Assembly (NCBI GenBank): GCA_002633005.1
Contig: NMRA01000342.1
Location: forward strand, 396,056-460,055
Source: Phoronis australis
Lineage: Eukaryota > Animalia > Phoronida
DNA: 64,000 nt
Reading direction: 5' to 3'
Both the position numbers and the translations under genes were made by a program. Below the pieces are notes generated by a model. The model did not search any database. It was given only the letters and a program-made list of their open reading frames with translations, and was not told where the DNA came from. Positions within the stretch are counted from its first letter, which is position 1. The number at the start of each line of letters is the position of its first letter. This document shows, in pieces, positions 5,130-41,720 of the stretch.

Positions 5130-6080
5130 AAAAGACACACGATATTTCGAAACATACTTGTTTCATTCTCAAGTGAAGATAAAATGACGCAGTAATGCCA
5201 CCACAGAGTATAAGCTGACGACACACACAGTGAGACACGGCGGGTGTGAAATACTGCAAAGAATGACTAATGAATTGGGGTAACAGGAAAGTCACGCAAA
5301 CAAGTGTAACGTGCGGCGCGACCCTGTTTGCTGCTCATTCAAAATAGGCTTCTCAAAAGCAATTAAAAGGGACTCTAATACTTTCAAACGCAGCACATCT
5401 TGCTCCACGTAGCGAATTGACGTGTTTTCCACAATTTCTTGACGGGTGATTTTACGTGCGTGGTATTGCAGAAAATGATCTTGAATGGCGCCATTTTGAA
5501 GATGCATGGATAACCGACGGGAAAGATTGCAAACCGTTTGACCAATGTAACATTGTTTGACGTTTGAACGAAGACATTCGTTCATAGGGCATACAAATTC
5601 ATAAACAACACTACACTGTGCAACGGGGCGGACTTTCGCTTTAGAAATATTATTTTTAATGACCAAGTTGGAGGACTTCCTATTCCGATAATAAATAATA
5701 ACATCAAGGTAATCATCAGGCTTGCAAACTTTAACGTTGTCCCTTATGATTTTCTTAAATGGGTGTTCGTCCTGGAGGTAATTATTAGACATGACATTTT
5801 TGTAAAATATCTTTTTGGTGACACCAGTCCGACGTGCAGGGACTTCATAGCTAATTCTGGACATAAATCGCTTAATATGGAAATCCACGAAAGCATTGGT
5901 ATATCCATTATTCACTAGTGTTTGTCTTATGCGATCTACCTCTTGATTGAACAATAGCCAGTTAGACGACACCGAATACGCCCTCTTTAGGAAGTTGACC
6001 ACAACGGCGACCTTATACCGCTCAGGGCACTCACTTTTGGCGTGGAGACAGAAACCTTTATCAGTAGGCTGAGTTGGAGT
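5130..6080 (-). mobile_element. 5'-truncated Penelope-like retroelement (C-terminal RT region plus GIY-YIG endonuclease and 3' region)
   Basis: ORF 5292-6194: TDKGFCLHAKSECPERYK..KRAYSVSS..EVDRIRQTLVNNGY (post-RT region of Penelope-like elements) and VVYEFVCP..C..CYIGQTVCNLSRRLSMH..LESLLI..KPILN (GIY-YIG with zinc-binding Cys/His). The RT catalytic core is absent. Confidence 0.88.
5137..5178 (-). ncRNA. Minimal type I hammerhead ribozyme motif (U3:A8 variant) at the 3' end of a Penelope-like element
   Basis: Minus strand reads CAC-TTGAGAA-T-GAAACA-agta-TGTTTC-GAAA-TATC-GTG: stem I CAC/GTG, core UUGAGAA, 6-bp stem II, GAAA, palindromic ATAT stem III, AUC cleavage triplet. Lies about 115 nt downstream of the GIY-YIG stop codon. 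Confidence 0.65.
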
Positions 6081-7961
6081 TGAGTTGGAAAATCTGTATA
6101 ATGATATTTTACGACTAAAAGGTGATGGTTTCCTCAGTGTCAACCCTAATATACGAGAACAGCTTCGCTCGGAAGGCACTAAGTGTCGCAGCAAAAATCA
6201 TCGATGTGCTCTCTCCAGCTAGCCGGGGAGCCCCATCAGTTTTAATTGCTTTCCATGGGGGCCCTCAGTAAAACATAGAAAGATAGTAAGACAAGCACAC
6301 AGGAAAGACAGAAAAGTAGTGATTGGATTCTCCCCGATGTCGATGCCCCGGGGCCGGCCTTCTGCACTCCACTGATTGCCGGCGACTTTGAGAAAGGCAT
6401 TTTACTAGTTGGTTTAGAGAATCTTTATGGTGTACTTCTATTGGTAAAACTGTTGGGAAGAACAAAGGCCTAATAGTTTGACTGTCGATACACTTTTCTT
6501 CAAATGGTTGCCCCCCTTCATACCACATAGCTGCTGAGTTATCTGCTGCGATTTCAGGTTGCTCTCAAACAACCCACAATTGCAAAAATATGGCAGCACA
6601 TTTAAGCCACGTTTTGAAATCCTTAGTAACTTTGATTTCATAATCTAGTGCTGGCAAAGGGGTGGTAATTTGGTCTTATAACTGTTAATTTTGCAGTTTC
6701 CGCCTTTTTCAGAGACTCGATTCCTTCTCCGGTAAAACGCATTAAGTAATTTCTGTAGTCATACGCACCAGTTTTTATTTGAAACGACTCACAACTTTCC
6801 TTTTCTGGCAGAGTTATCGATAGATAGAGTGGAATAAAGGCATCCAGTCCGGGAATGTGTTTACTGCTAGGCAAACCGCACTGAGACAAGAGGAGCGCCT
6901 CTTGAATAACAATCATGGAGTTTTGTGTGTTTTTACCGGACGCAGGAGAATAGCACTCTTGCTAAAAACATGTTCTGCTGCTCTAGAACAGCGTTATGTG
7001 GAATGATTATAATACACAATGAGTTTCAATCGGACTTCACTAGGCGGGTATAGATGTAGCGTACATGCACAACGGTGTTACTTCAAAATTCACCGTTTTC
7101 CAGTCGTCTGTGGAGGAGAAAGTACTGATCAATTTCTCGGCGCATACCTTCGCGCAGGCGTTCAACAAATTATAAGAGCACCTTTCTCTCTTTGTACCCT
7201 CCCCGGTACATAAGTGCGCTAAACATTTCATGAATTCTTCGCTAGCCGTCTGTCTTTCTTTTATTTTGTTTCGCACTCGGAAACGGAGTTGAAGAGTTCG
7301 AGCTTTCAGAATATTATAACCCGGAATCCCGACAAAATAACATAAGCAATTTTCCACGCTGCTGTTTGAAATGAACCAATGTGCGTTGAAATTGCCATGG
7401 TAATGACCTCTAACAGATTCAAGGCATTGTGGATAAATGTAGGTTTTTACACAGCCAGTATTTCTAGTATTTATACACCGAACGAGATTTGGAGAATTTA
7501 TCACCCGAGGGGCGCTACCCCAGATTGTGAAATCAGCTCTAAAACTCAGAAATCAAAAATCAAAAATTTCAACTTTCGTTATGTATGACGTTAGTTATTC
7601 CTACGCAGTGCATTGGATCACCAATCTCAGCATGCCCATCACGATAATTTCCCCCACCAAATCGTAATCTTTCATGGGAAATTACTCTATGGGTGATTAC
7701 ACGATAGTTATTTTCTGTTCAGCCTCGTATTGAGGGATAACCTACTTTTTGTCATGATGTGCAGAGACATCTTTTGTTGAAAGAATCGTATCCTTCTGAG
7801 CACGTATCGACATTCACTGTATCCATATTGTCTGCCTTTTAGCCTTAGCCTGATTTCGTGAAAAAGTCTGATTCTTAGCCAAAATACAGCAGAAACAGGC
7901 ACCTGAGTGTCGTGAACATGGACACATACAGCCAATTTCATAAAAGCGATTTAAAGTTAAA

Positions 7962-14230: not shown

Positions 14231-16163
14231 CAAATTGAGTTAGATACCTTTTATCGGACTGAATATGTAAAACAATAATGTTATTTATTAATGTAGAATG
14301 CAGAACAAAATCACGTTAACAACAGATGTCACTAATGAAAAATTATAGAAATATAGAACTTAGTTTTAGCAAAATCAATGGCGCATTAGAAAATCACAAC
14401 GAAAAATCGAACTCAGTACAACCATGACGGTGGTAAATGTTAATGTACGTTTGTATTGTTGTATTGTAATTGTCAATTTGTTACAACAAATGTCGGAAAA
14501 AATGTTCACACCATAATTTTGTTCTTAAAATATCGAAAAAGAAGCCACTAAATCGCGCACTAGTTTAGATAGATTTTTCCCTAGGCGGTGACACGAAGTA
14601 TCCAACGCAATATACCCGACTCCCGTTCTTGTCTCTCAGTGTAGTAACCACAGGAGGTTTGCGTAACACGCACTCAACATCTGTAAACACGGCTCGTGTA
14701 AAATACGTCTTTTATGTTGGTCTTGCTCCGGATTCAACGCTCTCAGTATTGTTGACAATAGGCTGAAAGGTGTAGACCGAGGTTGCCTTTGAGGCGATGA
14801 GCATTCAGCTTTGCTTGTTTAGCGCTGAGTCCGATTCAACACTATACGGCTGTACGGGTCAGCGAATGGACAACCATCGTATAAGTGAAGGTCGCTAGGT
14901 AAATATACCAAATTATATCTGGCTAAACAGATAGACAACACCAGTCGATAGGCATCTTTTGCTGTTCAGACCGAGTATAAGAACAAACTAAGATTTTCTG
15001 AATGTTTCTATCGTAGTGACCTAAAGTGTGTTTTTGTCGTGGTGAAAGCTCTGCGTGACAAAAGCAAAAAAGGAGTGTTGAATGGCTGTTGTTTCTATAT
15101 TTTGCATGTTTGTCGCGGAATAAGACCAAGTAGGCAGGTACAAAAATAAGATTGCCAGAGCAGATACATAATGTAAGCATACTACACAAATGGTTACAAA
15201 CAGAATATAGCAGATTTTTATAGTGCAACAGTTAATGCTTTCGATAACAAATATCAATGAAATTGCTCAGAGTTTCTATTTCGTATGTAGACCATTTTTC
15301 ACCGCTTTTCGTTTAACTGACGAGAAACGAATGCCGTGACAAGTCGCAACAGACAGAAACTGAAAGACGAACAGTTTTAAAAGGTTAAGGATATGTAGGG
15401 CCCTAGGAAAGTGTCCAAATCGGAACATCACATCTCAGAAGTAAGACCCTAGAAAAGAGTCCAAATCGGAACATCACATCTCAGAAGTAGACCATCAGAT
15501 ACTACTGTATTGTTCTCCAAAACTCAATAAAGAATTTTTTTTTAATTTTCCATATTTGTATGATGGCCTCTCAAAATCGTGCTTTTATGATTTTTGTGAA
15601 AACCTCAAATGTTACATAAAGCTAAGACAAAATGATAATTTGGAAAACATTAACAGCGTTTTGGGGATTGCATCTTGCAATTTTATATTAGCCAAAATGT
15701 GTTAATGTTATTGATACAGTCGTTTTACTATCGATGTACCGTTCTTTTTCATACATTTTATTAAAAAGGTTGTGGTTACCTAACCCAAAGACAGATCGTA
15801 GTAAAAGTCAAAAATGAAATTCCACATGCTTTTTACTTTCAGAAAATACACACTTTTACTGAGTTAAATTGTTTAAATTTATAAATATTTGCCTAAATAC
15901 TCAGACATGTCGACAATCAAGGTGCAACTTGACCTTAGATATCGTTCAAGTAATGACGGTGGCCCATTGTGATTGATCGAGCACTTTTGCCTGTTCGTCG
16001 AAAGTAAAGAAAAGATCGGTATGGGACTTGGGACGGGCATTGTATTGCCTCGTTGAACACGTATAATTCAGCCAGATCCGGGTGTGATGAATAACAAGAA
16101 CGGTCGTGGCTGTTAGATTAGACGACATCGATTTAACTTAAAAACTTTTTCATAGAGATAAGG

Positions 16164-16218
16164 ATGGAAGCCAAAACGATTTGTTCACTGTGCGTGATGT
16201 TGATCTCAGTAGGTCTAG
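16164..16218 (+). CDS. Ly6-like gene exon 1 (signal peptide)
   Basis: AGGATGG start context, MEAKTICSLCVMLISVGL, strong donor G|GTAAGT, phase 1. Confidence 0.75.
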
Positions 16219-19200
16219 GTAAGTAGATTGTATTTTGGTTTAAGTCGACGGTGGTCAATTCGGGGTTAAATTACCTGATTTCAGGGCGACACATATGACA
16301 CCTGATATCCATTTGGGTTGCAGAACGGAGCATTTTCCTAGTTGTTCAGTCTTACTTATAGAAGCTGCGCGACTAAAATTGGTGATAGACTGTATGCAAG
16401 ATCTCCTCACAGCGACCATTTCGTCACCCTGGTCGTCGGTACTGTGTACACTTCATGATTATCTTACCTAGATCCCTTGCTTACGTGTTGTCATGATACC
16501 CCACACGGGAAACTTAAACTATTCGCAACTAAGGAAAGTGAAGACTATCCCACAGTTAATTATTAAAATGAGAAAAATTCCAAATATCACATTTTAATAT
16601 TACGGCCACACGTAACACAAGCAGCATTTAGTTCAGTGCCTCCATTACCAAATCGCCCTGTATTGCCAACGCTGAAATGTTTGGATCGCTTAGTTACCAT
16701 TAAATCTGAAAAATTGCCTGAAGTTTCTTCGCAAGTATGAGAATTAGAATTGCTAATTCACTCTCGATTACCGATAAACGTCAAAATGCCGTGCCTAAGT
16801 ACAACAGGGCTCAGAATCAAAACATTGTATTCCAGTCGAACTCGAACTTAAATTTGAAACTCTCCCTTTTACTTTTAAAGAAAGTGTATGTTAAGTGTTT
16901 AGACCAATTTCCTGTCTGATGACCTCTAGATTCAAGCTACAAACTCGAGAAAACATTCGAGATTTTGAATAAAAACTCGAAATTTCTATTTCGGACTCTA
17001 ACCCATGGCTACTATGCTGGGGTCATCAAGTGCAAGCTAGGATTAGACAGACATCCAAATAACCATAATGTATTCCTACACAGCATAATACACTCGTATC
17101 TTGATAGTGCACAACAGTAGAACGGAAAATGTCCAAAATAATTTCGAGTTCGGCATCGAGGTAGACTCCCGGCCGTAAATCCACAGCCTGTATACAATAA
17201 CCCTTAAAGGAGAAGGCAACCATTTTCATGTCATTTTTAGCAAAAAAATAAAGTTCGTTGATTATCCCAGACATATTTTTCAGTTAATTACAGCTTTTTG
17301 TAATTTAAACAATTACTCGTCTGCTACTCCATAAGTGACGTTTTGAGAGGCAAGAATTTCACGCCAATCTCTTTTTATATAAACCGACTGTGAGAGCTGC
17401 CGAGCCAGTCATCGCTCTACCGCGGTTGTGATAAGTCGTCATTTGCTTTTGTTTACGAGTCAGTCAACATGCCACACTCTTGCTGCGAACCGGGATGTAC
17501 TCATTATCGTCTCACGGATAGAGCCTGGAAACAACTGTCCCACTTGCCAGAGTGTCCCGCGACACACTCCCACTGGATGGTTACCTGAGCATACAAACTG
17601 CCTACAACCCGCCGTGTGACTCCCTCGCCATACACCTGGCTGTAATTAAGTGAAAAATATGTCTGGTAACCAATGAACCTTATTTTTGCTAAAAATGACG
17701 TGAAAACAGGTTGCGTTCCCCTTTAAGACTTCTACTACTAGGACGAAAACATAATCTAGAATTGTTGCTGTTCTACCTTTTCGTCCGACACCCCCGTCTT
17801 TTGCGCAGTTTCCGACGGGTTGGCGTCCAGTCAGCCGGTCATTGAGCGATTGACATACGGGATTCGATTACGTCAGAAAGTTTTTCCATCTCAAGTTGAT
17901 ACCTTGGTGAACTCAGTCTAGTCAAAAGATAGCGGTAATATATGAAAACATATAGTTGTATCGGAATAAACCGTCATCATTTTGTTGTCAATGTGAGGCT
18001 CCTGAAAACCTCAGTCACTTGCACAAATCCCTAAACTACGTACATGTACGTGGAGGCGACTTATGTAATTTCACCGAACTTGCGTCTGCTTCACCCTTGG
18101 ATCTCAACTGGATTATACCGATTCGAATGTCCTTTGTTACTCTATCCATAGTTAACCTTACTTGGAGTTTCAATGATTCTCGACGTGAAGTCTCGTCTGT
18201 TGCTCAGTAATCACTCAATGGACGGTTTTGTTCAATGGAAAATTCTCAAGTCGCCATGTATGGTTGAACAAACTTCTACAATTTTTATGGCCCATCGTTT
18301 ATTTACAGGGGATTTTCGAAAAGTTTATTATGGTGATGTACAGTCAATAAAAATTCCCCAAGAAAAAAAATTTGGTGGCCTTTCGGAAACTGGATTGTTA
18401 TTTAGCAGTGGGTTTTAAGAGTAAATAAGTGAGACTAAGAACGTCAACTCAGTGCCGTAGCCAGTGTTGGTGGCATCAGAACCGATGATTGTTTTTTTTT
18501 CTACTTTGGTTGACTTAAAACACTCGCCAGAATTCACTTAATCGGCAGTTTGACTCGATAATCTTGAAATATTTAATTTATGATAAAAACTGAGAAATTG
18601 ATGAAATGCCAGGCATGCAAAGTGAATCCGAAGGGTTTATTTTCCCAAGTGTTCGAAAGTCGCCGTGGGGGTTTATGTTGTTGGGGCTGACTCTTGGATA
18701 ATGTCCGATATATGTAGGCCACAACGGTTACCGATTAATGCCGGGAAGACGATGCGTTTCCTACGTGCCACGTCAGAGTTGGTGGTAGAACGGGTCGTTC
18801 TTAACCCCGGGTTCTCTTCTCAACATCCTAAAGTAGGCATGAGTTGCCTTGTCCTCCAGATTCAAGACACCCCTGGGCACGGAACCGAACCTTCAAGTTC
18901 GTTTTCGTACTTAAAATTTTACCGCTGTTTTCTGTTCTACTTAGTAGGAACTCAAAAGACTGCGCTCAAAATTCAGTCTTCGAGTTCATTTTCATTTACG
19001 CAGATACGCAGTCTACAATGAAGTTCGGACTTGGTGGATCCAATATGAAAATTTTGAGCTCAATAATCTTTATTTAGCAGAATACAAAATGTCGAAACTA
19101 AATTCGATTAAAAGTTCCGAGTCCTTTTATTTTGTATTCGAACACATCTTGTTGGTAAGTTATAAAAATTAATAATTAATTATAAAAATGATTTCATTAT

Positions 19201-22200
19201 GAACCAAACTATCCTAATGACTCGCCTATCTTTACTTTCAGTTGCTGGACAAAATTCAACAGAAGGTAAGGTTTTCTGTTTGGTAAACGAAGCGACAGTT
19301 CGTTTTCTCTGGTCACACCCACCCACGCATTTGTTTCTCTTATAAAAAGTTTAATAAATTAGACAGTTGGTGGTTTGTCCGAAACGAACTTAAGTCATAA
19401 TGCGAAGTGTCCGGAGTAAAGGCTTTGTCTATATAAATGCCCACCAAGGCTTTGTTTAGTAAATGCCCACCAAGACTTAGTCTAGTAAAATTGTGATGGG
19501 TGCAATATAGGGTAATATCGGGGTTCCCAACCGACCTATTGCCATATGTGCTCTGTCGTCTGCACTACCCAATGACGTTTTGTTCATAATGACCCGGATC
19601 TATTTTTGTGCAAAAAGTCTTCGATACTGCACTGAACGCTTAGCTTTCAGTGAGGAGGTAGACGCAACGTACATTTGGTATAAAGCTTGATTTTGACAAC
19701 ATCCTTTTAGATCGAGTTTACTAGTTCAGTCATTCATGCATGAAATCTTTTATTGTTAACAATGAACACGTTGCTGTGTGCGCTCCGTTAGCAGGTACAA
19801 CATCCACCCAAGCGGCGGCGACGTCTGCACCAGCGCAGTCAAACAACGGTAACCTGGTGACATTTCTGGGAATTTATTCAATGTACAAGCTAACTACAGT
19901 GGGTTTTTAATATCACAAAATGTTTTCTCTGTGCAATGTAAAGTAGTATTTCAAAGTTACATAGGCGTTTCTCATCAAACTAACAATTACCTATGTATTA
20001 TACTGAGAGACCTGATGACCTTTTAACATGTTATTGAATTTTTCCAAAAATAATCGAAGCAGTAGCCCAGTATGTTGCTGGCGAGACCTGCAACGCTTGC
20101 ACGGTCTAGCTTTTGATACCAGCGCAAATACCAATTAAGAACAAATTCAGCGAACTTTCTTACCTGATTTACAGCAAATTCCCTTACACAGTCTTGGTCC
20201 TAATGAAGAAACGCTCAATAAATTTTGATCAATTTTGTCAATATTAAAACTGCTGTACGAATGCTTACACACCTTCTAATTTTTAGAAGTGGGAAGACAG
20301 AGTGCCTAACGAACTTCCTTAGACTTTACTTTGAGTTGCATAATTTGAAGGATGCTAACTTAGTGTACACTCTATTCCTTAGATACGAACGTGTAGTGTC
20401 TCTCATCAACTTCATCGTCTTCAGCAGTAATAACAACATTGCCTCGTAATGTAGTGAATGTTGCGTGCAAAGCAACCAAACCTAACAGGTCGAAGGTTCT
20501 TCATCCTTTACCGTATACGAATTCTAACATTTCTTACATTTCCTGCATCACGTATCGCTATAATTTATAACTCATTGCCCTGTTTTGCTTTCAACATCGA
20601 AATGTGAATTAAATGAAAATGACAGGTTTTAAAGTTTTATTTGCGACTTAAAATCCGAATTAAATAAAAACAAGGCTTTAAATTATTGCGATATGTTACA
20701 CAACTTCTTTGAATAGTAATTACCCCTATATTTAAATAGTACGTGTTTTAACTTGTGTGCGTGTTTCGTGTCGCTGGTAACAAGAGGATTACGTTATTTT
20801 AATGTTGTCTTCTATGTTTTGCGCGTGTCAGTAGTTTGGTCTGATTATTGTTATGGACTTCAAGAGACATTGTGAAACATGTTTATTATTGGTCTTACGC
20901 ACTGGTTTACTATATACAGTGTATGGAAGACGTTTTATTGTAAACAGCTCTCCCATGCACAAAAGGGTTACGCTATTTTTAACGTTGTTTTCTATGTTTT
21001 GCGAGTATCAGTAGTTTGTTAACGCCTTCATCGACGTTTTTTACAGCTCACGACATGTCATTCATAGGTGAAGGCGGGGCCAAAGTTATTATCGACAAAG
21101 AGGTGCACGTTGTTAGGATCATACTTTTGTTCCTGAATGTGCTGTTGTTGTTCTGCGGTTTATAAGACATAAATTGAACTTGCAGTAGTGCTGTGTTTGT
21201 TGTTAAGGACTATCATATACATGTATCACAACCTTAGCATGTCAGCTTGAAACATCCACGGTGAAGGCGGTTAAGTCATAGAGGAACGATGGCTTCTGGA
21301 GGCACATAATTGCCAATTTATAGTTAATATTTGAACTATTAACAGGAGCGCATAGAAATATCAAAAAAACGAAAAGTTGTGCAGTGGTCAGGAAGTTTTC
21401 TATTTCAGAAAGTTTCACCGCTACATTGGTGTTCGGAAGAAACATAAATTACACGTAGCTGTAATAAGAAGTTTTTGGACAATCAGTTTTCTTATGGATG
21501 CAAAAGAAGCGCATCCCATTCTGAAAATCATTGCCAGTTGTGACTGAATTTTTTTCTGTTTTAGCCTCCACCGCGGAGCCCACGGCTGAATCAACTACAG
21601 GTAACACTGACGTCGTACGTGACCTTGTTAAAGGGATACGCGCTTGCGCAATCTCTCCCTGTCCGAGGGAGAAAAAAATGTATTGGTTGGTCTCAACAAA
21701 TTATTTACCAATCAGTTGTGAGTGCAAGCGCAGATTCTGGCTCGTTGGCAAGTGTTTAGCGTCGAAAATGAACTTTAAGTAATGGTCCCCAATGGTACCG
21801 TGCCTACTACGGCCGGTCACTGAAGAGGTCGCTTTTAGTAGTAATTGCAGGCGGTCGTACCAGACGTGCGCAGGCCTCGCATGTGGGCCCATTGCACTGA
21901 TCACCTGGAAATATTTTTATGCTTTATTAATATATCGTTAAAACCGAGCTGAGGTGCTAGAAACCTGGCTCAAGGGCTTAGCAGTGTGACCTGGTGGGAC
22001 TCGAACCCACGACCTCGAGTAAAGAAAGCGGGCACTTATCAACCAGGCCACACTGCCTCCTCATAGGTCGCTTTAGTTGCTGAATGACTTCTAAATTGCG
22101 CTCTTCCTTGCGTGTATTCCAAATATTGATTGGAACTAATTGGACAGAAGGGCGGGTGGTGTGCCACCATAAATTAAGTGTTATTTCACTACAACCAGTA

Positions 22201-25200
22201 AAGGGGCTACATGCAAAATCCCTAATTTTTCAAATTTTAGAACATCCATAGACCTTGTTAAGATTAGCGTAAATTTACCTTTTATGAGTTTCTGAGTATT
22301 TTTAACTCCTTTAATGACTCACTTTGTGTATTTACATAAAATCCAACGCACACAAATATTGGGAAGTGCGTAACATTTGATCTAAAATCAGCACACTGTT
22401 GCTTCTCACAAAGGCAATAATAGTGGTAGATCGTGAAGGAGAAAAGAATAAAACACGAAACATGAAGTTGTGAAATCTGAGTTTCTTATTTGGGCCAGCT
22501 AAAAGCCATTTTCATCACAGACTTTTAAGGTTAAATTCATCGCTCTACCAAACCTGTATCTTGTATATTTGAAGCATAAGCTCACTATTGTTTGTTACTG
22601 CTGCCTTGCACAACGCAAAAGTAAAAAATTGTTGTTTCTCTCATACTTTTCGAGCAGTTGATTTTATACAACACACACTTTCAGCATTTTTTGAAGGTGG
22701 CACTATTCGTGTGTCTAATTATTAATCCAGCAAGGTGATAAATATTAGACATGTTTAATTCTTCATCAGTAGCGATGGAGATCGGCGGGTGTATCCTAGC
22801 GAATTTATGACAAGGGGTATACGGAAAACCAAAAGAAAAATCTGTCATCAGCAGTCAGTTTTAGGGGAGTGGTCAAACTGAACCAGCATCACTTACACGA
22901 CCTGAGCTCCATTCAGAAACGGTACACAGACGGCGCTGTCCGCAAAGTTTACTTTCATGAATCAAGATCTTGTAGAGCACTCTTGAATGTAGAGAGGTGA
23001 ATCCAGGACCACGAGCAGGAGGTGGGCTTGCCAATGGACTGGCATTTGGTGCATTAAATTACTACAAAATTGGCCCGAGCACGTTACACCGCCCCCTCCT
23101 CTGGATCCATGTTGGTATATGCGGTTTTGAATAACTACATTGTATAGGAATACGCTGGTATTGGTCAACTTTACTGCAAGTCTTTTTACTTGCGGCAGTG
23201 TACTATATAGACCTAATTGGTAGCCATCAATACAGTTGTACAAAATGCGACCTTTTTGAATTTCCATGTACAGAGTGGTGTTTAATTTTAATTTCAATTT
23301 CCTTGTGGATTTTATATGGACGCCCTTTTAACACAATGTGCAAGTTTGGCACAAACGAATTAATTATTCACAATCTGAGACAAGTTTCTATGAACAAGTA
23401 ATCCTTTCAAATTATCAGCACAGACGAGTACTAAAACAAGTTTGAAGAAAATGAAACTTTTTCTTGCCCGGCCTGTTTCACTTGTTACTTCCGGGAGTAG
23501 TGGTCTAAACCCTTGGGTGAAGGTGGTACGGAGACATGTCGCGCCCCCTATGTTCGATCATAATCAAAGGGGAATTTGACTTGCCAGAATAAATAGTGGC
23601 TTGATTTGAGACGTTCTCTCTTTTTCAGCAAAGCCAGTTGCTCCAACCCAAGCACCAGCCTCAACTCAAGGTAAGTCTTTCGAGATGTAAATTTATTCCC
23701 CGAAAAGTGCCACCTTGAGCCAAATAGGAGTATCAAAACGGTTGTAAACCTGCATTTCATCACAGAAATCTACTTTTCACCTTGTCATTTAGATCACTCG
23801 TCGTTATGAAATTGTTCTGAAGCTCTTAATCAATCAAACTAATCGTGCGGGATGGGGTTATAAAATACGCTGTGCTAACAACGTCATTGCGGAAGGTAAT
23901 GGCTGCCACCATGTATACACAAGCAGTACGCGGATGGAGTTTGAGTCTATACAACGTGCCCTAACCAAGCTGTCACTCCTAGACCTGGAGAATCACACCA
24001 TTATCTTTGCCACCGATTCCATGGCAGTGTTGATGAAAGTTCAATCTGGAAACCTCCCAGCCAACTGGGGTGTCTTCCGATCACGCCACCCCCATCATGT
24101 AGTGATCTGGTCTTTCGTACCTGGCCACGCCGGTGTCTTGATTAATGAGCGTGCAGATTACCTCGCTGGCTCATGCACCACCAACCAACCCTTCTACTTA
24201 TCATTCGGCTGACGTTAAGCTGCTGGCCCGCAAACGCAAACTCGAGCAGACTGCATCCCAACTGGCTGAGTTCAATGATGGCAGCCGACTGCTCGAAGCC
24301 GGTATTATTTATGGCCATGCTGCGAAGAGTCACAAGAAGAACCATATGCCCTAGTGCTGTCAAATCCAATGCTTACAGGCAACGTCAGCCCTGGAGTTCT
24401 GCGCCTTCTGCTGTCACGGGGATGGTCTGGGGAGGGGAATAATGCACCAGTATATCCCCAATGATCCTGTCCGTGACAGGTATTACAGGTATTCAAACTT
24501 CAAGGCTTCGAAAAAGCTGACAATTCATTATTGCTTCAGACCATGTTGTACAAGTCGGCTTGTCACAGACCATGTTGTACAAGTCGGCTTGTCACAGACC
24601 ATGTTGTACAAGTCGGCTTGTCACAGACCATGTTGTACAAGTCGGCTTGTCACAGACCATGTTGTACAAGTCGGCTTGTCACGGCTTCAAGAACGGTGTC
24701 GGGGAAACAACGATCTGACAGTTTTTACAAACCCGGAAATCACTTTTCGTTTTGGATTAAGAATTTTATGCTCTGAATGGTTTAAATCGAGCGCTCGCTG
24801 CATAGACAGAGCGCAGGCGCAAAGTCTGCATAGACAGGGCGCAGGTGCAAAGCCTGCATAGACAGAGCGCAGGCGCAAAGCCGCTTCTAGTTACAATCGC
24901 AAAACTCATGTTAAAGGGTTACTATTAGATGGTATAAATTTCTTGAAGTGACAGTGTACTGGCTTTGATGAAAGCTGCGGACCAGCGAAATCTCTGCTTT
25001 TGCGATATTATTACAAAGCGCATATTTTCGACGTTAGTTCCCAGTCATTCGCTTAAATCGAGGCCGGCGAGTGAATCAATACGCTTTAATGATTGTATTT
25101 CTCTGGCTAAAACGGAAATCGAATTTGTGTTGTATATTCATCAAACTGGTCTTCCTTACTGTGACAGGATTCTATATCCCTTGGCAACAACAAAATATGA

Positions 25201-28200
25201 ACCTCCAGCGACTCAAGTAAGAGTTCTAGATCGGCTATACATCGCCATATTTAGATTTATAAGCTCTGCTATTTATCGCGTGACTTTTAACTCCACCAGA
25301 AGGGGTTGGGCTGCGACCCCTGAGGTCTAATTTCCAATACGCCTTTGGTCTGATCTAAACAAACTCTTGACCTGCCGATGATGCCAATTCAACTCGGCCA
25401 CAATTGACGTGAGACCATAATACAAATGTATGCCGTGATGACTTGAATTAGAAATTGAATTGATTGTATTTTCTCAAACAGTCACGGTCAGTTGGATACT
25501 AAACTGGACGTGAACAGCAAATGCTCTACCGTGGCTGCGATACAGCATCCAAAAATACCACAAAATCGTATTTGTTTGTTTTTTAATTGTTGATTATTTT
25601 TCATATTCATGTGGTTTTTAAGTATCGTAAAACACTTCACATGTGTGTGAATGTCTTTTTAGCGCCACCACAGGCTACGACGCCACCAACAACGTCACCA
25701 ACAACGCCACCGCCTGAGAAAGGTATCTACAGTTTTGTCATCTCGTTTCGATTTTTGAGATTATCCTCGGTCTAAGGGGCAACAAAATCTGTTAGTTTTG
25801 AACAATGTACCCTACACAAAAGAAACTTTTAGTGAATTTTTTCCAGCTTTGAGACATCCTCGCTGCTTCCCTTCGTACCTAGCCAGCACGCGGGTATCAC
25901 GCAGTGGCACGCACTTTAGCATTGGCTAATGTAACCTCAGCAGTCATTAGTTAGCTTTACAACACTATGAGAAAATGGCGGACTGTGAACGATTTTTAGC
26001 CTTGTCATGCAAGTGGCGTCGCAGCAACTATTTCGTTTCTGCAGTGATGTTTAATAGCCGCATGCTTGAAGCACATACATGTACAATAAACACATATCTG
26101 GCCGATTTAACCGGTTTGTTATTCATACTGTATGAATACAGGACAGTATCCTAAACATAAGTCACAGTAGAAAGATGCACTCCGAAATGGCGCAACCACA
26201 ATTTCTATGATTCACATTTCCTGAACATGAAATTAAGCACCGATTTGTCTGTACAACAGACCACATTTACAGTCCATCAGCCATGCCAATTTGTTTGTGT
26301 AAAGCGCTGTCTTTTGAGAATTCGACTAGCCAATAAGAAACGCCGGTGATACCTGCGTGCTGGCTAATGACCACCTAGCGGCACGCGGGGAGCCAGCGAG
26401 TGAGACATCATGTATGGTATCAAATTTATGCAATAGATGGCGCCCTGTTGAATCAACTGGTAAATCTGAAGAACTCTACTGAAAAGGTGGAGCCCAGTGT
26501 TTAATTTGTAATAAGTTTCAAGTTTGAAATTGTATCTATCATGGAGTGGATGCTCGTGAACAACCTACTGGGTCGAAATGTAAGTCGATGACCCTACTCG
26601 CCAAACTTGAGTCATGGGTCTTCTACATGCGTACTGTACTTCAAATCTCTTTATCTTACTCCATATGGTTGTGTGGGATTTTGTACGCCTAAATTAATGT
26701 GTGTGTGTGTGTGTGTGTGTGCGTGTGCGTGTGCGTGTGTGTGAGCGCGTGTGTATATGCACATGTTTCCGGTTGCATACATTGTATTTTCTTTAATCTG
26801 TCTGGGAGTTCGGTTGTCCTCTCGATATCTCAAAAATCCGCTGTCGGATCTTGTTGAAATTTGGGCATAACTAGGGCGATGATTGTCTCTTTTCAATCTT
26901 CCCGGGTTCCCAGTACCAGCGAGGCGGGACTTTTCATTGTTTTCTTTGGCGAGGTGGGTGCGTTTCTAGAAAGATGATTGTCCTGAGATACTATGCATAA
27001 TGGATTTCTTTGAGACTTGATACAAAAGTATGTGGCGAAAATGTGTCGAGGCTAGTGTATTTTGGACGGATGCGTCCCTTTCAGGGCGCCTGTAAAGCAA
27101 GTTTGGCGGTGTCACGCAACTCTGAGCAATATATCGCTATGAATTATATGCGAAGTATATGTTTTCATTCGTGAACATCTTGCCTTACGCAGAGTGCTCG
27201 AGGCTAGTTCAGTAATCGAACTTTCGAGATAGTCAGTACTTTGTGATACGGCGGTTTGATACACTAGCGAACCCAATCATACGGATATCAGGGGCGGACC
27301 CAGGATTTTTAGTTAGGGAGGAGCAGGGCAGAGTATTAGCCAGGATTTTGCCCGTCAGAAATTCGCAGCCCCCAATTGCCAAATGGAATCTGCCGTGGGA
27401 GAGTTTTAGGGGGGGGGGGCATGACTCCTTTGGCCCCCCTTTAAATCCGCCACTGTGAGATAGATGAATACGTGGTATATCAACTTTTTTCCTTGCGAAC
27501 CGCATTCACATAGCAGCATTTATCAAATTGTAATCGCCATTTGTACATGTAGGTCGCTTCATTAAGTGCTATTCATGCGTTAACTGCGACGAACCCTTCA
27601 ACCCGAACGCCAAGGGTGTAGTCATCGAATCGTGCTCCGGGAAATGTGAAAAGAATTACAGATCAGCATTTACAAGCACTGTCAGTGAGTACCTAACGTG
27701 ATCTATTTAATGCTTTTCTGTGTCACATGGTGTCCCTGGACGATCATGTGTCAGTTTAGTCAGTGGTAGATGACTCTGCGTTTATAAATTAAACGAGAAG
27801 TTTCAACTCCAATCATGGGTTCTGAGATTTCACATTGACCTTTCATAAATAGCGAGAGACGTCATAAACACTCACGGATTGTGAAATAGCGGTCACTTAC
27901 CACTCCTACACTGTTTGTAGAGATCACTTTATTATAAATACGGGTATGTTGGTAAATGTACTAACTATCCAAAATCACAGCTTGGCGATCACCTTCATGA
28001 CATTTTCTGAATCTCATAAGTCCATGCTCTGGGATGCGCACCGATCGATTTCCGCTAGCGATAAAAGGTCAATGTATCACTTGCAATACGCAGTTGAAAT
28101 GTAACAGAGGTTTTATTCACTCGACCATCAATTTATAACGTTTTAGATAGAGCATTTTAACAGTTGGCCGATGTCTCGTGCAACTTTTCGGAGCTGAAAC

Positions 28201-29217
28201 GGCCTTACTTGTCTTGCTGATTTCTTACCGTTAATTATGAAGTTCCACGTCATCAACACTTTCTTTCGACTCCCGAATATTTTTGATTTACTTGACTTTC
28301 GAAGAAATGTAGGTTCCAATAATTTCACCAACTCTTGTCATACCATTACCGACTAATCTTATAACGCTAAAACAATTTCTTAAAACATTTTCCTTTCACA
28401 TGACAAACTGTTAAATTAAACGAGATTAACTTTAAAATGTCTAGATAAACCTACTACTTGGTAAGACTTGAGCTTTTAAAAAGCGTTTCAAGTCTAAGAC
28501 ATGGGCGACGGCGCAGCACTGGAAAAAGGGGGGCTATAGCCCCCCGTCCCCCTGAGGTACACCGCTCATAGATCATGGGCGCCCCCCAGCCCCCTATGGT
28601 TTCACGTTTGTTTTCACGCGATGAATTTAAAACGGTGTAGCAACCAATGTTGAATACTTAAGAAGCGCTTTGGATTAAACAAATGCTGAATATTGCCGAA
28701 TAAGCCAGCACTTCAAGTCGAAGTCAACCCGTATATGCGCCATTTTGGAATTTTAGGCCGGTTGCCCAATCCCTGTTAACTCTGAAGCGTTTTCTTGAAT
28801 CGCTTATACTGTCGATGTCCTTTTCGGTAACGGAAATAGAATCCTATCACGGTCAGGAATAGTATGGCACCGATTTTATGAGAGTTAAAGACAAAGTTCG
28901 ATTTTCGTTTTCAGCCAATAAAACGGGGCGATACTCAGCTTTAAAACGACCTAGCTAATGTAACTACAATTATTTACGTATTTCTAGATTTCTTTTGGTA
29001 TAGCAGCCGAATACTTTATTCTTTTACAGATGGTACACGAGTAGACAGGGCGTGTGACGCTAATGCTAAGGACGTCGTTTGCCCTCCTCCTATTTCTTTA
29101 TTTGGGTGGACTACAGTGGATTGTTATTGCTCAACAGACCTGTGTAATAGTGCAGTGACACCTACATGCTTAGGGGTAGTGGTCCTGACTGCCGTTCATA
29201 TCTTGTTCAGTTTGTAA
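16164..29217 (+). CDS. GPI-anchored Ly6/uPAR (three-finger, quiver/sleepless-like) protein with micro-exon-encoded mucin-like N-terminus; join(16164..16218,19242..19265,19795..19848,21565..21600,23629..23670,25663..25722,27553..27684,29030..29217), 196 aa
   Basis: All 7 introns are GT..AG and phase 1, and the spliced frame is open: MEAKTICSLCVMLISVGLVAG-QNSTEGTTSTQAAATSAPAQSNNASTAEPTAESTTAKPVAPTQAPASTQAPPQATTPPTTSPTTPPPEKGRFIKCYSCVNCDEPFNPNAKGVVIESCSGKCEKNYRSAFTSTVNGTRVDRACDANAKDVVCPPPISLFGWTTVDCYCSTDLCNSAVTPTCLGVVVLTAVHILFSL*. Ten Cys from KCYSC to CYCSTDLCN, followed by a hydrophobic C-terminus. Confidence 0.85.
17208..17722. mobile_element. Kolobok-like MITE with ~90-bp imperfect TIRs, intronic
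   Basis: TTAA|AGGAGAAGGCAACC..TTTTTAGCAAAAA..CAGACATATTTTTCA..TTAATTACAG is mirrored at 17640-17722|TTAA. Confidence 0.75.
19242..19265 (+). CDS. Ly6-like gene micro-exon 2 (24 nt, VAGQNSTE)
   Basis: TTTACTTTCAG| ... G|GTAAGG, phase 1-1; completes the signal peptide. Confidence 0.75.
19795..19848 (+). CDS. Ly6-like gene micro-exon 3 (54 nt, GTTSTQAAATSAPAQSNN)
   Basis: TAGCAG| tandem acceptor, G|GTAACC donor, phase 1-1, GC-rich T/S/A codons. Confidence 0.72.
21565..21600 (+). CDS. Ly6-like gene micro-exon 4 (36 nt, ASTAEPTAESTT)
   Basis: TTTTTTTCTGTTTTAG| ... CAG|GTAACA, phase 1-1. Confidence 0.78.
21840..22064 (-). mobile_element. tRNA-derived SINE with LINE-derived 3' tail and target-site duplication
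   Basis: Minus strand: A box TGGCCTGGTTG, B box GGTTCGAGTCC, CCCTTGAGCCAGG central block, tail GTGCAATGGGCCCA..GAGGCCTGCGCACGTCTG, short (ACT)n end. TSD AGGTCGCTTT(T)AGT at 21826-21839 and 22065-22077. Confidence 0.8.
23629..23670 (+). CDS. Ly6-like gene micro-exon 5 (42 nt, AKPVAPTQAPASTQ)
   Basis: TTCTCTCTTTTTCAG| ... AAG|GTAAGT, phase 1-1. Confidence 0.8.
23830..24500 (+). mobile_element. Decayed non-LTR retrotransposon RNase H fragment (I/ingi/Loa-group like)
   Basis: RAGWG..TSSTRMEFESIQRAL..IIFATDSMAVL..VIWSFVPGHAGVLINERADYLA is an RNase H1 motif set; frameshifted downstream. Confidence 0.85.
24537..24681. repeat. Perfect 29-bp tandem repeat x5
   Basis: Unit CAGACCATGTTGTACAAGTCGGCTTGTCA repeated 5 times with no spacers. 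Confidence 0.95.
24798..24881. repeat. 28-bp tandem repeat x3
   Basis: Unit CTGCATAGACAGAGCGCAGGCGCAAAG(T/C) with a few substitutions. Confidence 0.92.
25663..25722 (+). CDS. Ly6-like gene micro-exon 6 (60 nt, APPQATTPPTTSPTTPPPEK)
   Basis: TCTTTTTAG| ... AAG|GTATCT, phase 1-1, internal TTPP/TTSP repeats. Confidence 0.8.
25859..26400. mobile_element. Non-autonomous TIR element with perfect 9-bp TSD (Mutator-like)
   Basis: Termini CTCGCTG / CAGCGAG, sub-terminal IR TAGCCAGCACGCGGGTATCAC / GTGATACCTGCGTGCTGGCTA, TSD TGAGACATC at 25850-25858 and 26401-26409. Confidence 0.8.
26698..26754. repeat. (GT)n compound microsatellite
   Basis: Direct reading. Confidence 0.9.
27289..27454. mobile_element. 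MITE of the CAG(G/T)GGCGGA..TCCGCCACTG family
   Basis: Inverted termini; related ends at about 4729, 8865-8990, 35874-36977, 37061, 38025, 40298-40600 and 44303. Confidence 0.65.
27553..27684 (+). CDS. Ly6-like gene exon 7 (first half of the LU domain)
   Basis: TACATGTAG|GT CGC TTC ATT AAG TGC TAT TCA TGC..; IKCYSCVNCDEPF..ESCSGKCEK; donor A|GTGAGT; 132 nt, phase 1-1. Confidence 0.9.
29030..29217 (+). CDS. Ly6-like gene exon 8 (second half of the LU domain plus GPI signal)
   Basis: CTTTTACAG|; VDRAC..C..DCYCSTDLCNSA, hydrophobic tail LGVVVLTAVHILFSL, TAA. Confidence 0.9.
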
Positions 29218-31177
29218 TGACTGTTTTTTGACCGGATCACGGAGTGAGTAATGCACCGTCTTACGTTATTTGAGACCCGATTCGAAAATTGACCAATCAT
29301 TTGTCACGTTTTATGTCAACTTGTTGTTCATCACTGCTACAAGGCGAAGCACTGTAACGTAGATTCTCATTGGTTGTGATTAACGCCATTATAAATTCTC
29401 TTCACACTGGTAAGAGTAGCTGGTCTTCCAATGCAGCAAAATCGTGTTGCTATAGATATTGATAACATAAAACGTCCTGAATTCCCCTAACAGCCTCACT
29501 ACAAGTAAGTTAGCGAGCTTGGGCAATAGAAACCATGAGCAATGAAGCAGATAAAGCCGATTTTGAATAGGTAAGTTATCTAAATCAAAAACAGTCATTT
29601 GATTGAAGGCACCGGTTATTGAACCATTAACAGAACGAAGTAACATTTGAACATTCTGACTGGTTGATTTTGAGAACTGCAATCAGTGCTCTGCTTTATT
29701 GACACCAAGAGCGATACATCCCTGCCACACTCTTACGATAGCCGATAGCAAAGTCTCAACTAAAACAACAGCAGTACCTTTCCCCCAGGACCTTCATGTT
29801 TACAACAAACACAAAAACCGAGGCATGCGTATTGAGGCGCACATCACGGATTTCTGCTTGTTGGTCATCATCCTTTCCCGCGGTCGCTGTCTTTCAGAGG
29901 TGGCGCTGCGGCGGATATTTCATATTATGCTATTGGTCAATTTTCGAGTCTTGTCTCGACTAAAGTTTGATGGACCCTGGTCTGTGACGCAAAAGTGAGA
30001 CACTGAGCAATGTCCATGGTCCCGCTGTGTCCCCCGGTGGCCACGCCAATGGTGATTACTGGTTAATTGGATTGTTCGTGAAGTGCTGCCACCTTGTGCA
30101 AGAAGATACCGCTTGCTACGCTAAATTGTTAACCAGTAATAACATTTTAATCATCAATGGCCGGAACTCTTCATACTTTGTGGTTTCGTGTCTAGGTTAG
30201 TCTTGTAGGTGTATCTAGTCGCAAATATGTGCAACTTGGCTTTTGATGATTATTACCGTTAAAGTGCTGAAGCAGAATGACGTCAGTCAACACTCTGACG
30301 TAATTGAACACCCATGACACGTGGGAAGCACGGCAGTGACGTTTAAGTGTGTGTGTAGCTAGGCTGCGTTCCGCAGAGCAAGTTTCTTGGGGGGGGGGGA
30401 CGAAATCGTACAATTCTTCGTGAAATACTACAATGTATTTATACGGACAGTACGTGATCACTCTTAGGTCACTTCCCAGTGCCTTGCGTCAACGGATGTT
30501 CATACGTTATCCAAGGTATGAAGCAGGGATTATTTTAGGAGCGCACCCCACGCCATTGGCGTAAAAGCAATTTCCCTGGCGACCATTGTGAATGCTTTGC
30601 TCGGGTAAACGCGCCCATTACAATTGGAAGAGAAAAAAGACAAAAAGCTAACATGGCCCGTGCGTCCTCCAAGTTGGCTCATAGACTTGAGGCCGTGCGG
30701 GTCATTTCACCAATACTCGCGCTTTTCTAAAATGATCCCTGGCGATGTTGAGTTTATTTTGATGTCCATTATTTTATTTTAGCACACATGGGCGTGAATA
30801 TTATTCTTATTAAGCGTTGTACACTAGCTGTTGTATTATATACAGAAACCTGCTCATCTTTTAAAAGAAGGCTTTCACTGTGATGTCTTTAATTGTTTAC
30901 TAACTGGAGGTATTATGTATTCTTTATTTGCACATAAGGTTATTTACAATGGTACAAAGTCATTTATTGAAGTTCATTGGAATGAGGACTTTAAATTTCA
31001 AACGATACTAAAAATATTTTGCTTGTTTTTATAATTAAATTGATTTAAATCGGCATTCTTACACTGTTAAGCTGGGTAAAAAACGAAAATTGAAATAAGA
31101 CTTAAGTCCCGTCCACAAACAGCCCACACGTGAACAACTTAGACTAGTGCAACTTACCCTACTTTTAAGTGGAGCGT

Positions 31178-31308
31178 CCACACACACACACACACACAGA
31201 CACACACAGACACACACACAGACACACACAGACAGACACACACACAGACACACACTCAGACACACACACAAACACACACACACACAGACACACACAAAGA
31301 CACTCACA
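31178..31308. repeat. Compound (CA)n/(CAGA) microsatellite
   Basis: Direct reading. Confidence 0.95.
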
Positions 31309-39822: not shown

Positions 39823-40106
39823 CTAGTACTTCGTGTTTTGGTCCATGTCAGGCACCACACTGAAATGTTCATATTCTGAACCACGGTCTTCAAAATCATC
39901 CTCAGTCAGTTGATGATGTGGCTTGTCTCCTAGTTCACATGTTTGACTAACGGGGGCGTAATTGATCCCATGGCACGATACGTTCTGGACACACTGTGCG
40001 AGGCACTCTAGCTCATTCTGTGTTGTTGTAACCGTGTGTATATTTCTGCTTGCCAGAACTTTGTTTCCAATTACAGCTTTCATTTTGCTGAAGGACGACA
40101 TTGGAC
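39823..40106 (-). CDS. Terminal exon: PAN/apple domain
   Basis: NKVL..I.T.T...ELECLAQCVQNVSCHGINYAPVSQTCEL (C-x3-C-x5-C..NY..C.L); acceptor CTCATGTAG|, stop TAG. Confidence 0.88.
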
Positions 40107-41720
40107 CTACATGAGAGAAAACAATATTACATTCCATAGTCCAAATCACAATAACTCTTGCATCAACGAGTCGGCACTCTTGAAGACGCATTGCTTAAAC
40201 AAAACCACTTGTATTGTTCGCACACACGTTATTTGACATTTACAAATTAAAACACATTGCTCAGGAACATACGCTTCAGTATTTGACTTGCCTTTTTCAT
40301 GGGCGGATCCAGGATTTTGAGTTATGGGGGCCAGGGCACAGGAATAACAAGAATTTCGCCACATGTGCGCGCCCAGCCTAAAATGTAGGCATGCAGGGGT
40401 CTCGAATTTTTGGGTTTGTGAAGCTTATTACTAAAAAAACTATAAACGGGGTTTGTTCAAGGCATATGCATTGTGCATTCACCCCTCGAGCCCCCCTGGG
40501 TGTACGCGAACGCATATGCTAGTCAGCAATTCGCACCCCGAACTGCCAAATGGAATTTTAGGGGGTGCATGGCCCCCTTGCCCCCCCAAATCCGCCACTG
40601 TTTTTTTTCTTACGAGAATCTGACACTACGAATGGAACGGCCAAGAATTAAATTAATATTAGAATAGGAAGATTTACAAAATAAATTAGTATTTCGATTC
40701 CTAATACTCACCTTCTCTGTAAACACAGTTTTTCATGGCCTGCTTTATCTGATGCGCATTGAGAGCGATGTCGTACAGTTGAACACAAGAAATTTTCCCT
40801 TTAAAGTAACGGGTGTCAGACATATCATCCCGTCGTCCAATGCGCACGCCGTAACGAGTCTCCAACTCTAGTTGGCCTACATAATGACTATAAACTCTCT
40901 CACCGTCAATCCAAAACTTCGTCATGCCTGTGTGGTAGTCATACGTTATGGACACGTGCTGCCACCTATCTGATGTAAGCACAACCGAGGAAACGCCCAG
41001 GCCGTGATCGCCGTCACCATCGCCGATGTTAAAACGTATAAAAAGTTTTTTTTGACATGGGCCTAAAGCCCATATGTGAAGGCCATACGTCGATACCCCG
41101 TTGAGCTTCATATAGTTAAAGATAGGTCCGTCAGAGCCAGAAGAACGTGGATATAGATAGGACATCCAAGTAAACGAATACCGGACGTCAATGTTACCAC
41201 CAACGTTGGGAATTTCAACGTAGTCTGTAGTTTGACCAAAGAATTCAAAGGCGGTGTTTTTATCGTTTTTTAGTCCAGAAGTTAAGGAGGTGTCGCCGTG
41301 CACGCTAAAAGATGTTCCTCTCCCTGTTACGTCAGATGTCACATAACGAGCACTCATTGGCCAAAGTGCAACTGGACGAGGTAACGAAGAACCTGCAAAG
41401 TTATTATAACTTTAAAACCCGTTCAAAATGAACAATTTCCAACAACTTCATGAATTAGTCAAGAACTGTTCAGTTCCACGTCATAAACATTCGTATGATG
41501 TGTGACTCTTAATCATTCCATGAAAGAGGGTCTAGTTATAGTCTATGTGTTTAGAGTTCGCCTTTAAAATCCATTGAACATTGTGAATCCAATTGGTTTC
41601 TTTAAGGGTAATAATGGCAGCTACCAGAAATCAATTATGCTACCATGCACCAGGAAAATATTACGGGGTTCTAAGCTCAGAAAATTGTCGCTTAACCGGA
41701 GCGGGTACTGTGCTTGGAGC

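What the first reader, a model, noticed from the sequence alone, without database searches (positions are those of the whole stretch)
16164..29217. Hidden micro-exon gene: GPI-anchored Ly6/three-finger protein with a modular, splice-tunable mucin arm
Seen in sequence: five tiny exons (24, 54, 36, 42, 60 nt) are spread over 6.5 kb of repeat-filled intron. Each has a length divisible by 3, each is phase 1-1, and each encodes a T/S-rich peptide. They sit between a signal-peptide exon and a 10-Cys LU domain with a GPI signal. Established knowledge: Ly6/uPAR and quiver/sleepless proteins are GPI-linked modulators of ion channels and receptors, and arrays of symmetric micro-exons that generate variants by skipping define schistosome micro-exon genes. 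Inference: exons 3-6 can be skipped in any combination without frameshift (16 combinations), which would tune the length and O-glycosylation of the arm. The arm is N-terminal, so it is membrane-distal to the LU domain rather than a stalk beneath it, which seems unusual. The N-glycosylation sequon N-A-S exists only when exon 3 joins exon 4.
Basis: partly seen in the sequence, partly recalled or inferred. Interest (0 to 1): 0.82.

Follow-up and report, generated by a model that had tools for sequence, protein, structure and literature searches.

The report
Three-finger surface protein with sugary arm
An invertebrate gene, spliced in RNA from seven exons, encodes a likely membrane-tethered three-finger (Ly6) protein with a likely sugar-coated floppy arm built from short exons; the RNA shows one form that always skips one candidate exon, not the proposed mix-and-match set, so this is a modest variant of a known design.

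Summary
The gene is real and expressed. All eight exons lie where described, and every intron is phase 1. RNA reads support six joints: E1-E2, E2-E4, E4-E5, E5-E6, E6-E7, E7-E8, with 40-68 reads each in the best run. The mRNA seen encodes 178 aa, not 196: the 54-nt exon 3 is skipped. No joint using exon 3 and no other skip reached the 3-read listing threshold in 3 of 3 read runs; the 95% upper bound is 9-15% per event in the best run. So the 16 combinations and the exon 3-4 N-A-S sequon are not observed. Exon 3 is unlikely to be chance (3-4 of 2000 simulations) and has the weakest splice sites: a regulated or retired cassette. The Ly6/LU call holds on the cysteine pattern, gene layout and homologs, but no Pfam cut-off was reached and the fold was not shown. 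A disordered N-terminal arm before an LU domain is known (GPIHBP1; SP-10, whose arm length varies by splicing). It fails the schistosome MEG definition.

The parts
16164..16218 (+). Exon 1 coding part: start codon and most of the predicted signal peptide; phase-1 donor
   Evidence: Sequence and hydropathy; E1-E2 joint 50+1+1 reads
19242..19265 (+). Exon 2, 24 nt, phase 1-1: end of predicted signal peptide and N-S-T sequon; included in all joints listed
   Evidence: E1-E2 and E2-E4 joints
19795..19848 (+). Candidate exon 3, 54 nt, phase 1-1, T/S/A-rich, tandem acceptor (also 19792); skipped in the RNA examined
   Evidence: No joint listed; weakest splice sites, chance 3-4 of 2000 simulated introns
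21565..21600 (+). Exon 4, 36 nt, phase 1-1, T/S/E/A arm segment
   Evidence: E2-E4 40+1 reads, E4-E5 47+2 reads
23629..23670 (+). Exon 5, 42 nt, phase 1-1, P/A/T/Q arm segment
   Evidence: E4-E5 and E5-E6 (51+10 reads) joints
25663..25722 (+). Exon 6, 60 nt, phase 1-1, P/T-rich arm segment next to the LU domain
   Evidence: E5-E6 and E6-E7 (68+12+2 reads) joints
27553..27684 (+). Exon 7: first half of the LU domain, Cys 1-5
   Evidence: Joints E6-E7, E7-E8; Cys pattern; atlas leads 0.81 with QVR in 28% of members (lead only)
29030..29217 (+). Exon 8 coding part: LU Cys 6-10 plus Asn, predicted GPI signal, stop
   Evidence: E7-E8 47+7 reads and one contig; homolog P0002 E 5.8e-5; atlas 0.93
29218..31050 (+). 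3' untranslated region, about 1.8 kb; end approximate
   Evidence: Sense read depth to about 31000 in X4 and contigs of X1; ATTAAA at 31034
16082..16163 (+). 5' untranslated part of exon 1 (start not mapped); holds a 9-codon upstream ORF at 16087-16116
   Evidence: 10 reads cover 16082 in X4; sequence

Best explanation
The gene makes one main spliced mRNA (exons 1-2-4-5-6-7-8) for a 178-aa protein that is likely GPI-anchored, with a likely three-finger (Ly6/LU) domain and a 51-residue Thr/Ser/Pro-rich N-terminal arm predicted to be disordered and O-glycosylated, and exon 3 is likely a regulated optional cassette that would lengthen the arm in tissues not sampled. SHOWN: exon structure, splicing, skipping of exon 3, cysteine pattern, uneven expression between samples (E6-E7 joint 68, 12 and 2 reads in similar amounts read). 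INFERRED from family knowledge: secretion, GPI anchoring, the fold, and binding of a membrane partner (receptor, channel or junction protein) by the fingers. INFERRED mechanism: the arm leaves the disulfide core beside the GPI linker and acts as a glycan brush of roughly 10 nm (51 residues at the 0.2 nm per residue measured for CD45RO) that props up or shields the LU domain and so sets partner access; exon 3 would add 18 residues and one N-glycan site. The symmetric phase-1 exons are the expected result of exons accreting in a phase-1 intron after a signal-peptide exon and do not by themselves imply skipping.
For: Six joints with 40-68 reads in X4 and no other splice joint listed. Ten cysteines then Asn over about 80 residues, last intron between Cys 5 and 6, GPI-type tail in the last exon, matching the LU definition in PMC6600238 section 2. 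Whole-domain match to P0002, a tunicate LU protein: 44 bits, local score 146 against 33.6 +/- 7.2, 0 of 1000 Cys-fixed shuffles reach it (P0002 was picked by a search with exon 8, so this is not independent). P0002 and the L001 last exon hit Pfam QVR weakly (E 0.0016; E 0.0084). Arm 35% S+T, 59% S/T/P. In simulations of Lypd6, the head and mobile N-terminal region contact the membrane and lift the fingers (PMC9819746 passage). Exon 3: open symmetric frame, same composition, chance 3-4 of 2000, weakest donor (6 of 9, tied with E7) and T-poorest acceptor.
Against: No Pfam hit for exon 7 or 8 alone; the homolog hits are below Pfam's cut-off of 27.3 bits. No read joint with exon 3 was listed, so its use is not shown. 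Signal peptide, GPI site and O-glycosylation were judged by eye and hydropathy, with no predictor. No partner is known. Three of the four hits are unrelated repeat proteins with similar scores. No relative with the same arm was found, so conservation of the arm is untested.
Confidence: 0.55

Rival explanations
1. Same protein, but exon 3 is a retired exon: once coding, now always skipped, so the gene has one invariant isoform and the arm is a fixed spacer.
For: No exon 3 joint in 3 of 3 read runs; depth in its bin (3.17) equals the neighbouring intron bin (3.22) in X4; weak splice sites.
Against: The frame is open, symmetric and still bounded by AG and GT, with a composition like exons 4-6; three runs of one study, one with useful depth, cannot cover all tissues; up to about 15% inclusion is not excluded in X4.
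Confidence: 0.3
2. One reading: exons 3-6 are skipped in many combinations, as in schistosome micro-exon genes, giving up to 16 arm variants.
For: All skips keep the frame (for the arm exons; phases); exon 3 is skipped; in X3 the E4-E5 joint (2) is low against E5-E6 (10), p = 0.06 versus X4; CD45 and SP-10 vary such regions by splicing.
Against: No skip of exon 2, 4, 5 or 6 listed against 39-67 inclusion reads in X4; 95% upper bounds 9-12%. Small exons are only 30-37% of the coding sequence and 5 in number, against 10-20 in MEGs.
Confidence: 0.08
3. The arm, not the fingers, is the working part: the protein is a small GPI-tethered mucin-like glycocalyx or lectin ligand, and the LU domain is a folded pedestal.
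For: Arm is 51 residues with 18 Ser/Thr; two different amino-acid-changing variants sit in one codon at the LU start and one in exon 4; the LU domain is highly diverged (36% to the best hit).
Against: All ten cysteines and the canonical layout are kept; LU domains are generally the interaction surface; high divergence is normal for the family.
Confidence: 0.07

Closest known systems
Invertebrate single-domain GPI-anchored Ly6/LU proteins (Pfam QVR PF17064 type: Drosophila quiver/sleepless, boudin, crooked, coiled, crimpled; best sequence match XP_039274274.1, Styela clava)
   Same: Signal peptide, 10 Cys ending C-x-C-x4-C-N, LU split over two exons by a phase-1 intron, GPI-type tail in the last exon
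   Different: Four used (five possible) extra short exons add a T/S/P arm before the domain; P0002 has no arm. Orthology to quiver or any named gene is not shown.
Human GPIHBP1
   Same: GPI-anchored single LU domain with an extra N-terminal disordered segment encoded between the signal exon and the LU exons (PMC6600238)
   Different: GPIHBP1's arm is acidic, one exon, and steers lipoprotein lipase; here it is neutral, T/S/P-rich, and split over 4-5 exons.
Human SP-10 (ACRV1)
   Same: N-terminal disordered segment before an LU domain whose length varies by alternative splicing (PMC6600238 Fig. 4 legend)
   Different: SP-10 is secreted and varies by splicing events in one exon (exon 2); here the arm is made of separate cassettes and only one form was seen.
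CD45 exons 4-6 (regions A, B, C)
   Same: N-terminal O-glycosylated mucin-like segments in front of a folded ectodomain, differentially spliced (bioRxiv 10.1101/2023.02.23.529489)
   Different: CD45 is a transmembrane phosphatase, its variable regions are 47-66 residues each, and its isoforms are proven.
Schistosome micro-exon genes (MEGs)
   Same: Very short symmetric exons after a signal-peptide exon, in long introns
   Different: MEGs have 10-20 such exons making most of the coding region, give pools of variants, and are reported only from flatworms; none of these was met here.

Membership tests
Ly6/uPAR (LU, three-finger) | Ten cysteines in 60-90 residues, non-glycosylated Asn after the tenth | tested here: met
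   Cys at 96, 99, 102, 118, 122, 143, 152, 166, 168, 173 of the 196-aa model, then Asn outside a sequon; definition from PMC6600238 section 2
Ly6/uPAR (LU, three-finger) | Signal exon plus two LU exons, phase-1 introns, GPI signal in last exon | tested here: met
   the intron falls between Cys 5 and Cys 6; extra exons lie between signal and LU exons
Ly6/uPAR (LU, three-finger) | Pfam clan profile (QVR, UPAR_LY6) above the curated cut-off | tested here: inconclusive
   No hit for exon 7 or exon 8 alone; whole domain not scanned; homologs P0002 19.9 bits and L001 17.5 bits against cut-off 27.3; atlas neighbours carry QVR or UPAR_LY6
Ly6/uPAR (LU, three-finger) | Three-finger fold with 1-5, 2-3, 4-6, 7-8, 9-10 disulfides | tested here: inconclusive
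   Model of homolog P0002 failed, mean pLDDT 47.8; PDB sequence searches gave only BMP receptor LU domains at E 0.026 or worse
GPI-anchored proteins | Signal peptide, small-residue attachment site, hydrophobic tail without cytoplasmic part; anchor attached | tested here: inconclusive
   Pattern and hydropathy fit; no predictor or experiment available
quiver/sleepless orthologs | Orthology and modulation of Shaker or nicotinic receptors | not testable with these tools
   Too few homologs for a tree; function needs experiment
Schistosome micro-exon genes | Most of the coding region in 10-20 very short symmetric exons | tested here: not met
   5 exons, 216 of 591 nt (37%); 162 of 537 nt (30%) in the observed form; definition
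Schistosome micro-exon genes | Pool of splice variants by exon skipping | tested here: not met
   One set of joints in 3 of 3 read runs; limited to one study and to events above about 9-15%

The most novel reading that the evidence does not exclude
In cell types or stages not sampled, the arm exons are spliced combinatorially, so a free-living invertebrate would use a MEG-like cassette array to give one GPI-anchored three-finger protein a cell-specific glycan arm that tilts or masks its binding fingers: a splice-set rheostat on a Ly6 modulator.
Probability: 0.08. Interest if true: 0.7.

Novelty: new variant of a known kind. Interest (0 to 1): 0.3.

Why it matters
The gene's protein was not returned by the protein search, and very short exons in repeat-rich introns are easy for annotation to miss, so surveys of invertebrate three-finger proteins built on annotated proteins and Pfam domains (PMC13719153, parts 1-3 of 4 read; no such arm is mentioned there, supplements not seen) may overlook this architecture. 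It is an independent case of a disordered arm added in front of an LU domain, as in GPIHBP1 and SP-10, and offers a simple test of whether such an arm changes how a GPI-anchored LU domain meets its partner. Without evidence for more than one isoform it is a modest finding.

Tried and rejected
No own genome is held, so paralogs could be sought only in the window: none convincing. No indexed RNA holder was listed; raw-read runs of the same species label were laid instead. Protein word searches: exon 8 against longer proteins, 0 of 22 candidates; P0002, only itself of 5; alignment A1, only P0002 of 37. P0001, P0003 and P0004 were dropped as unrelated repeat proteins. PDB sequence searches were not significant. 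The structure model of P0002 was too poor to use, so no fold search was run. A further candidate exon near 25168-25217 was rejected: not phase 1-1, part of an inverted repeat, no reads in X4 (bin 25061-25467). Origin of the arm exons by tandem duplication is not supported: of 10 pairs only E3-E4 exceeded codon shuffles (7 of 500), which does not survive ten tests. An exon 3 read-through form ending in intron 3 was considered (open for 20 more codons, AATAAA at 20217 and 20663; sense reads there) and left unproven. My first exon 2 and exon 7 boundaries were off by one or two bases and were fixed. Literature searches for an invertebrate Ly6 with a mucin or micro-exon arm listed no such paper; the library holds open-licence papers only, and PMC4476152 has no passage with N-terminal, mucin or threonine.
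Full report
Observation. With corrected boundaries they are 16164-16218, 19242-19265, 19795-19848, 21565-21600, 23629-23670, 25663-25722, 27553-27684 and 29030-29217; all seven introns are GT-AG and phase 1, and the frame is open for 196 residues. Exons 2-6 are 24, 54, 36, 42 and 60 nt. A scan of both strands of the window for symmetric phase-1 candidates of 36-120 nt with at least 65% Ser, Thr, Pro or Ala found only exons 3 (two acceptors), 4, 5 and 6. The cluster is not chance.

RNA. One contig set and three raw-read runs were offered; the three read runs are from one study and 18-19% of each was read. Laid on 15200-31200 at 90% likeness, reads gave these joints (X4, X3, X2): E1-E2 50, 1, 1; E2-E4 40, 1, 0; E4-E5 47, 2, 0; E5-E6 51, 10, 0; E6-E7 68, 12, 2; E7-E8 47, 7, 0, the last also in one contig of X1. 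Fifteen further joints were hidden in that answer, so I laid the three read runs again on 15700-27900 at 97% likeness. That table is complete and lists six joints: the five above that lie in the stretch (49, 39, 47, 51, 67 in X4) and one 10-nt back-joint in a repeat. No joint uses exon 3, and none skips exon 2, 4, 5 or 6. A joint is listed only from 3 reads at 2 start places (or 50 reads), so I took 2 reads as the most an unlisted joint could have; the 95% upper bounds in X4 are 15% for exon 3 inclusion and 9-12% for the other skips. X3 and X2 have too few reads at the 5' end to bound anything. The observed mRNA encodes 178 residues. Expression differs strongly between the samples, whose tissues are not given.

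Exon 3. It is open, symmetric and of the same composition as exons 4-6. A candidate like it arose in 4 of 2000 and 3 of 2000 simulated introns of the same length (Markov orders 1 and 3); the filter was set after seeing the exons, so this is a rough figure. Its donor matches the consensus at 6 of 9 places (tied lowest, with exon 7) and its acceptor has the fewest T (4 of 14). Depth in its bin equals that of the intron bin before it. It was very likely a coding exon at some time; whether it is still used elsewhere is open. The N-A-S sequon needs the E3-E4 join, which was not seen. N-S-T in exon 2 and N-G-T across exons 7-8 are in the observed form.

Family. The domain has ten cysteines spaced C-x2-C-x2-C-x15-C-x3-C-x20-C-x8-C-x13-C-x-C-x4-C-N over about 80 residues, with the intron between Cys 5 and 6 and a hydrophobic tail in the last exon. 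This fits the LU definition and gene layout in PMC6600238 (section 2 read; passages). Pfam gave no relevant hit for either exon alone. The protein atlas put exon 8 next to small eukaryotic clusters at 0.93, one with QVR in 14% of members, and exon 7 at 0.81-0.82, a lead only. A search of 1.84 billion representatives with exon 8 gave 4 hits; three are unrelated repeat proteins, and P0002 is a 130-aa Styela clava protein with signal-like and hydrophobic ends and a weak QVR hit. P0002 aligns over the whole spliced domain, above 1000 of 1000 Cys-fixed shuffles. One metagenome contig holds a related last exon with the same phase-1 acceptor and a weak QVR hit but no upstream exon. A structure model of P0002 failed, and PDB searches gave only non-significant BMP-receptor LU domains. 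Membership in the LU family is very likely; orthology to quiver or sleepless is not shown. No second LU gene was found in the window.

Mechanism. Shown: one spliced form, with a 51-residue arm of 35% Ser+Thr and 59% Ser/Thr/Pro (the signal cleavage site was set by eye). Inferred: secretion, GPI anchoring, O-glycosylation, and binding of a membrane partner by the fingers, as for quiver/sleepless, the septate-junction Ly6 proteins and starfish Lystar5 (PMC9410279 passages). Cys 1 and the 9-10 loop both belong to the disulfide core, so the arm likely starts close to the anchor and is not simply beyond the domain. In simulations of Lypd6 the head and the mobile N-terminal region touch the membrane and lift the fingers (PMC9819746 passages). 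I therefore favour a glycan brush of about 10 nm (0.2 nm per residue, from CD45RO) that sets the tilt of the domain or access to it, with exon 3 as an optional 18-residue extension. This last step is untested.

Comparison. GPIHBP1 and SP-10 carry an extra exon for a disordered N-terminal segment in front of the LU exons, and the SP-10 segment varies in length by alternative splicing. CD45 varies N-terminal O-glycosylated regions by splicing exons 4-6 (passages). Symmetric exons, phase 1-1 among them, are enriched in disordered regions in human genes generally (PMC3632108 passages), and LU exon sets are mostly phase 1, so the phases need no special explanation. Schistosome MEGs have 10-20 very short exons making most of the coding region and yield variant pools (PMC4350168 and PMC10526429 passages); here the short exons are 5 and 30-37% of the coding sequence, and no pool was seen. 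A 2026 survey of 387 invertebrate genomes finds LU proteins in all of them, often tens per genome, and does not mention such an arm in the three of four parts read (PMC13719153; supplements not seen; it classed proteins by domains, so arm-bearing members may sit there unremarked). PMC5850857 (passages) and PMC4476152 (term search) added nothing on arms. Searches listed no paper on an invertebrate Ly6 with a multi-exon mucin arm; some searches were for analogues and seen as listings.

Verdict. A real, expressed gene that the protein search did not return, with an LU domain and a short-exon arm: a new variant of a known kind. The part that made it striking, combinatorial splicing, failed the test I could run. 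Interest 0.3.

Noticed in passing
window:39823-62423 (minus strand): A run of LamG/pentraxin-like exons (Pfam Laminin_G_3 at 40701-41408, 49350-49718, 55037-55336, 58059-58604, 61683-62423), with an F5/8 type C piece at 43739-44122 and a PAN domain at 39826-40191: one or more multi-LamG secreted proteins, convergent with the Ly6 gene.
   Followed up: partly
window:19363-20583: Sense-strand reads at depth 2-3 over intron 2 and the start of intron 3 in X4, and at 19770-20583 in X2 where spliced reads are almost absent; may be slow splicing around exon 3 or an intronic 3' end (AATAAA at 20217, 20663).
   Followed up: partly
window:27558-27559 and 21573: Two different amino-acid-changing variants in one Phe codon at the start of the LU domain (X3, X4) and an Ala-to-Thr variant in exon 4 (22 of 57 reads in X4); likely alleles.
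   Followed up: no
window:16087-16116: Nine-codon upstream ORF in the 5' untranslated region, covered by reads; TATA-like stretch at 16061-16068.
   Followed up: no
window:19789-19794: Tandem acceptor (TAG CAG) at candidate exon 3 would give 54- or 57-nt forms.
   Followed up: no
window:23796-24209 and 5292-6197: Retroelement remnants: an RNase H fragment in intron 5 (E 1.8e-7) and a GIY-YIG-like ORF on the minus strand upstream (E 0.0039, below cut-off).
   Followed up: no
window:24537-24682 and 24798-24882: A perfect 29-nt tandem repeat in five copies and a 28-nt repeat in three copies within intron 5.
   Followed up: no
L001:1066-1307: Last exon of another animal Ly6/QVR-like gene with the same phase-1 acceptor, on a 3.6-kb metagenome contig.
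   Followed up: partly
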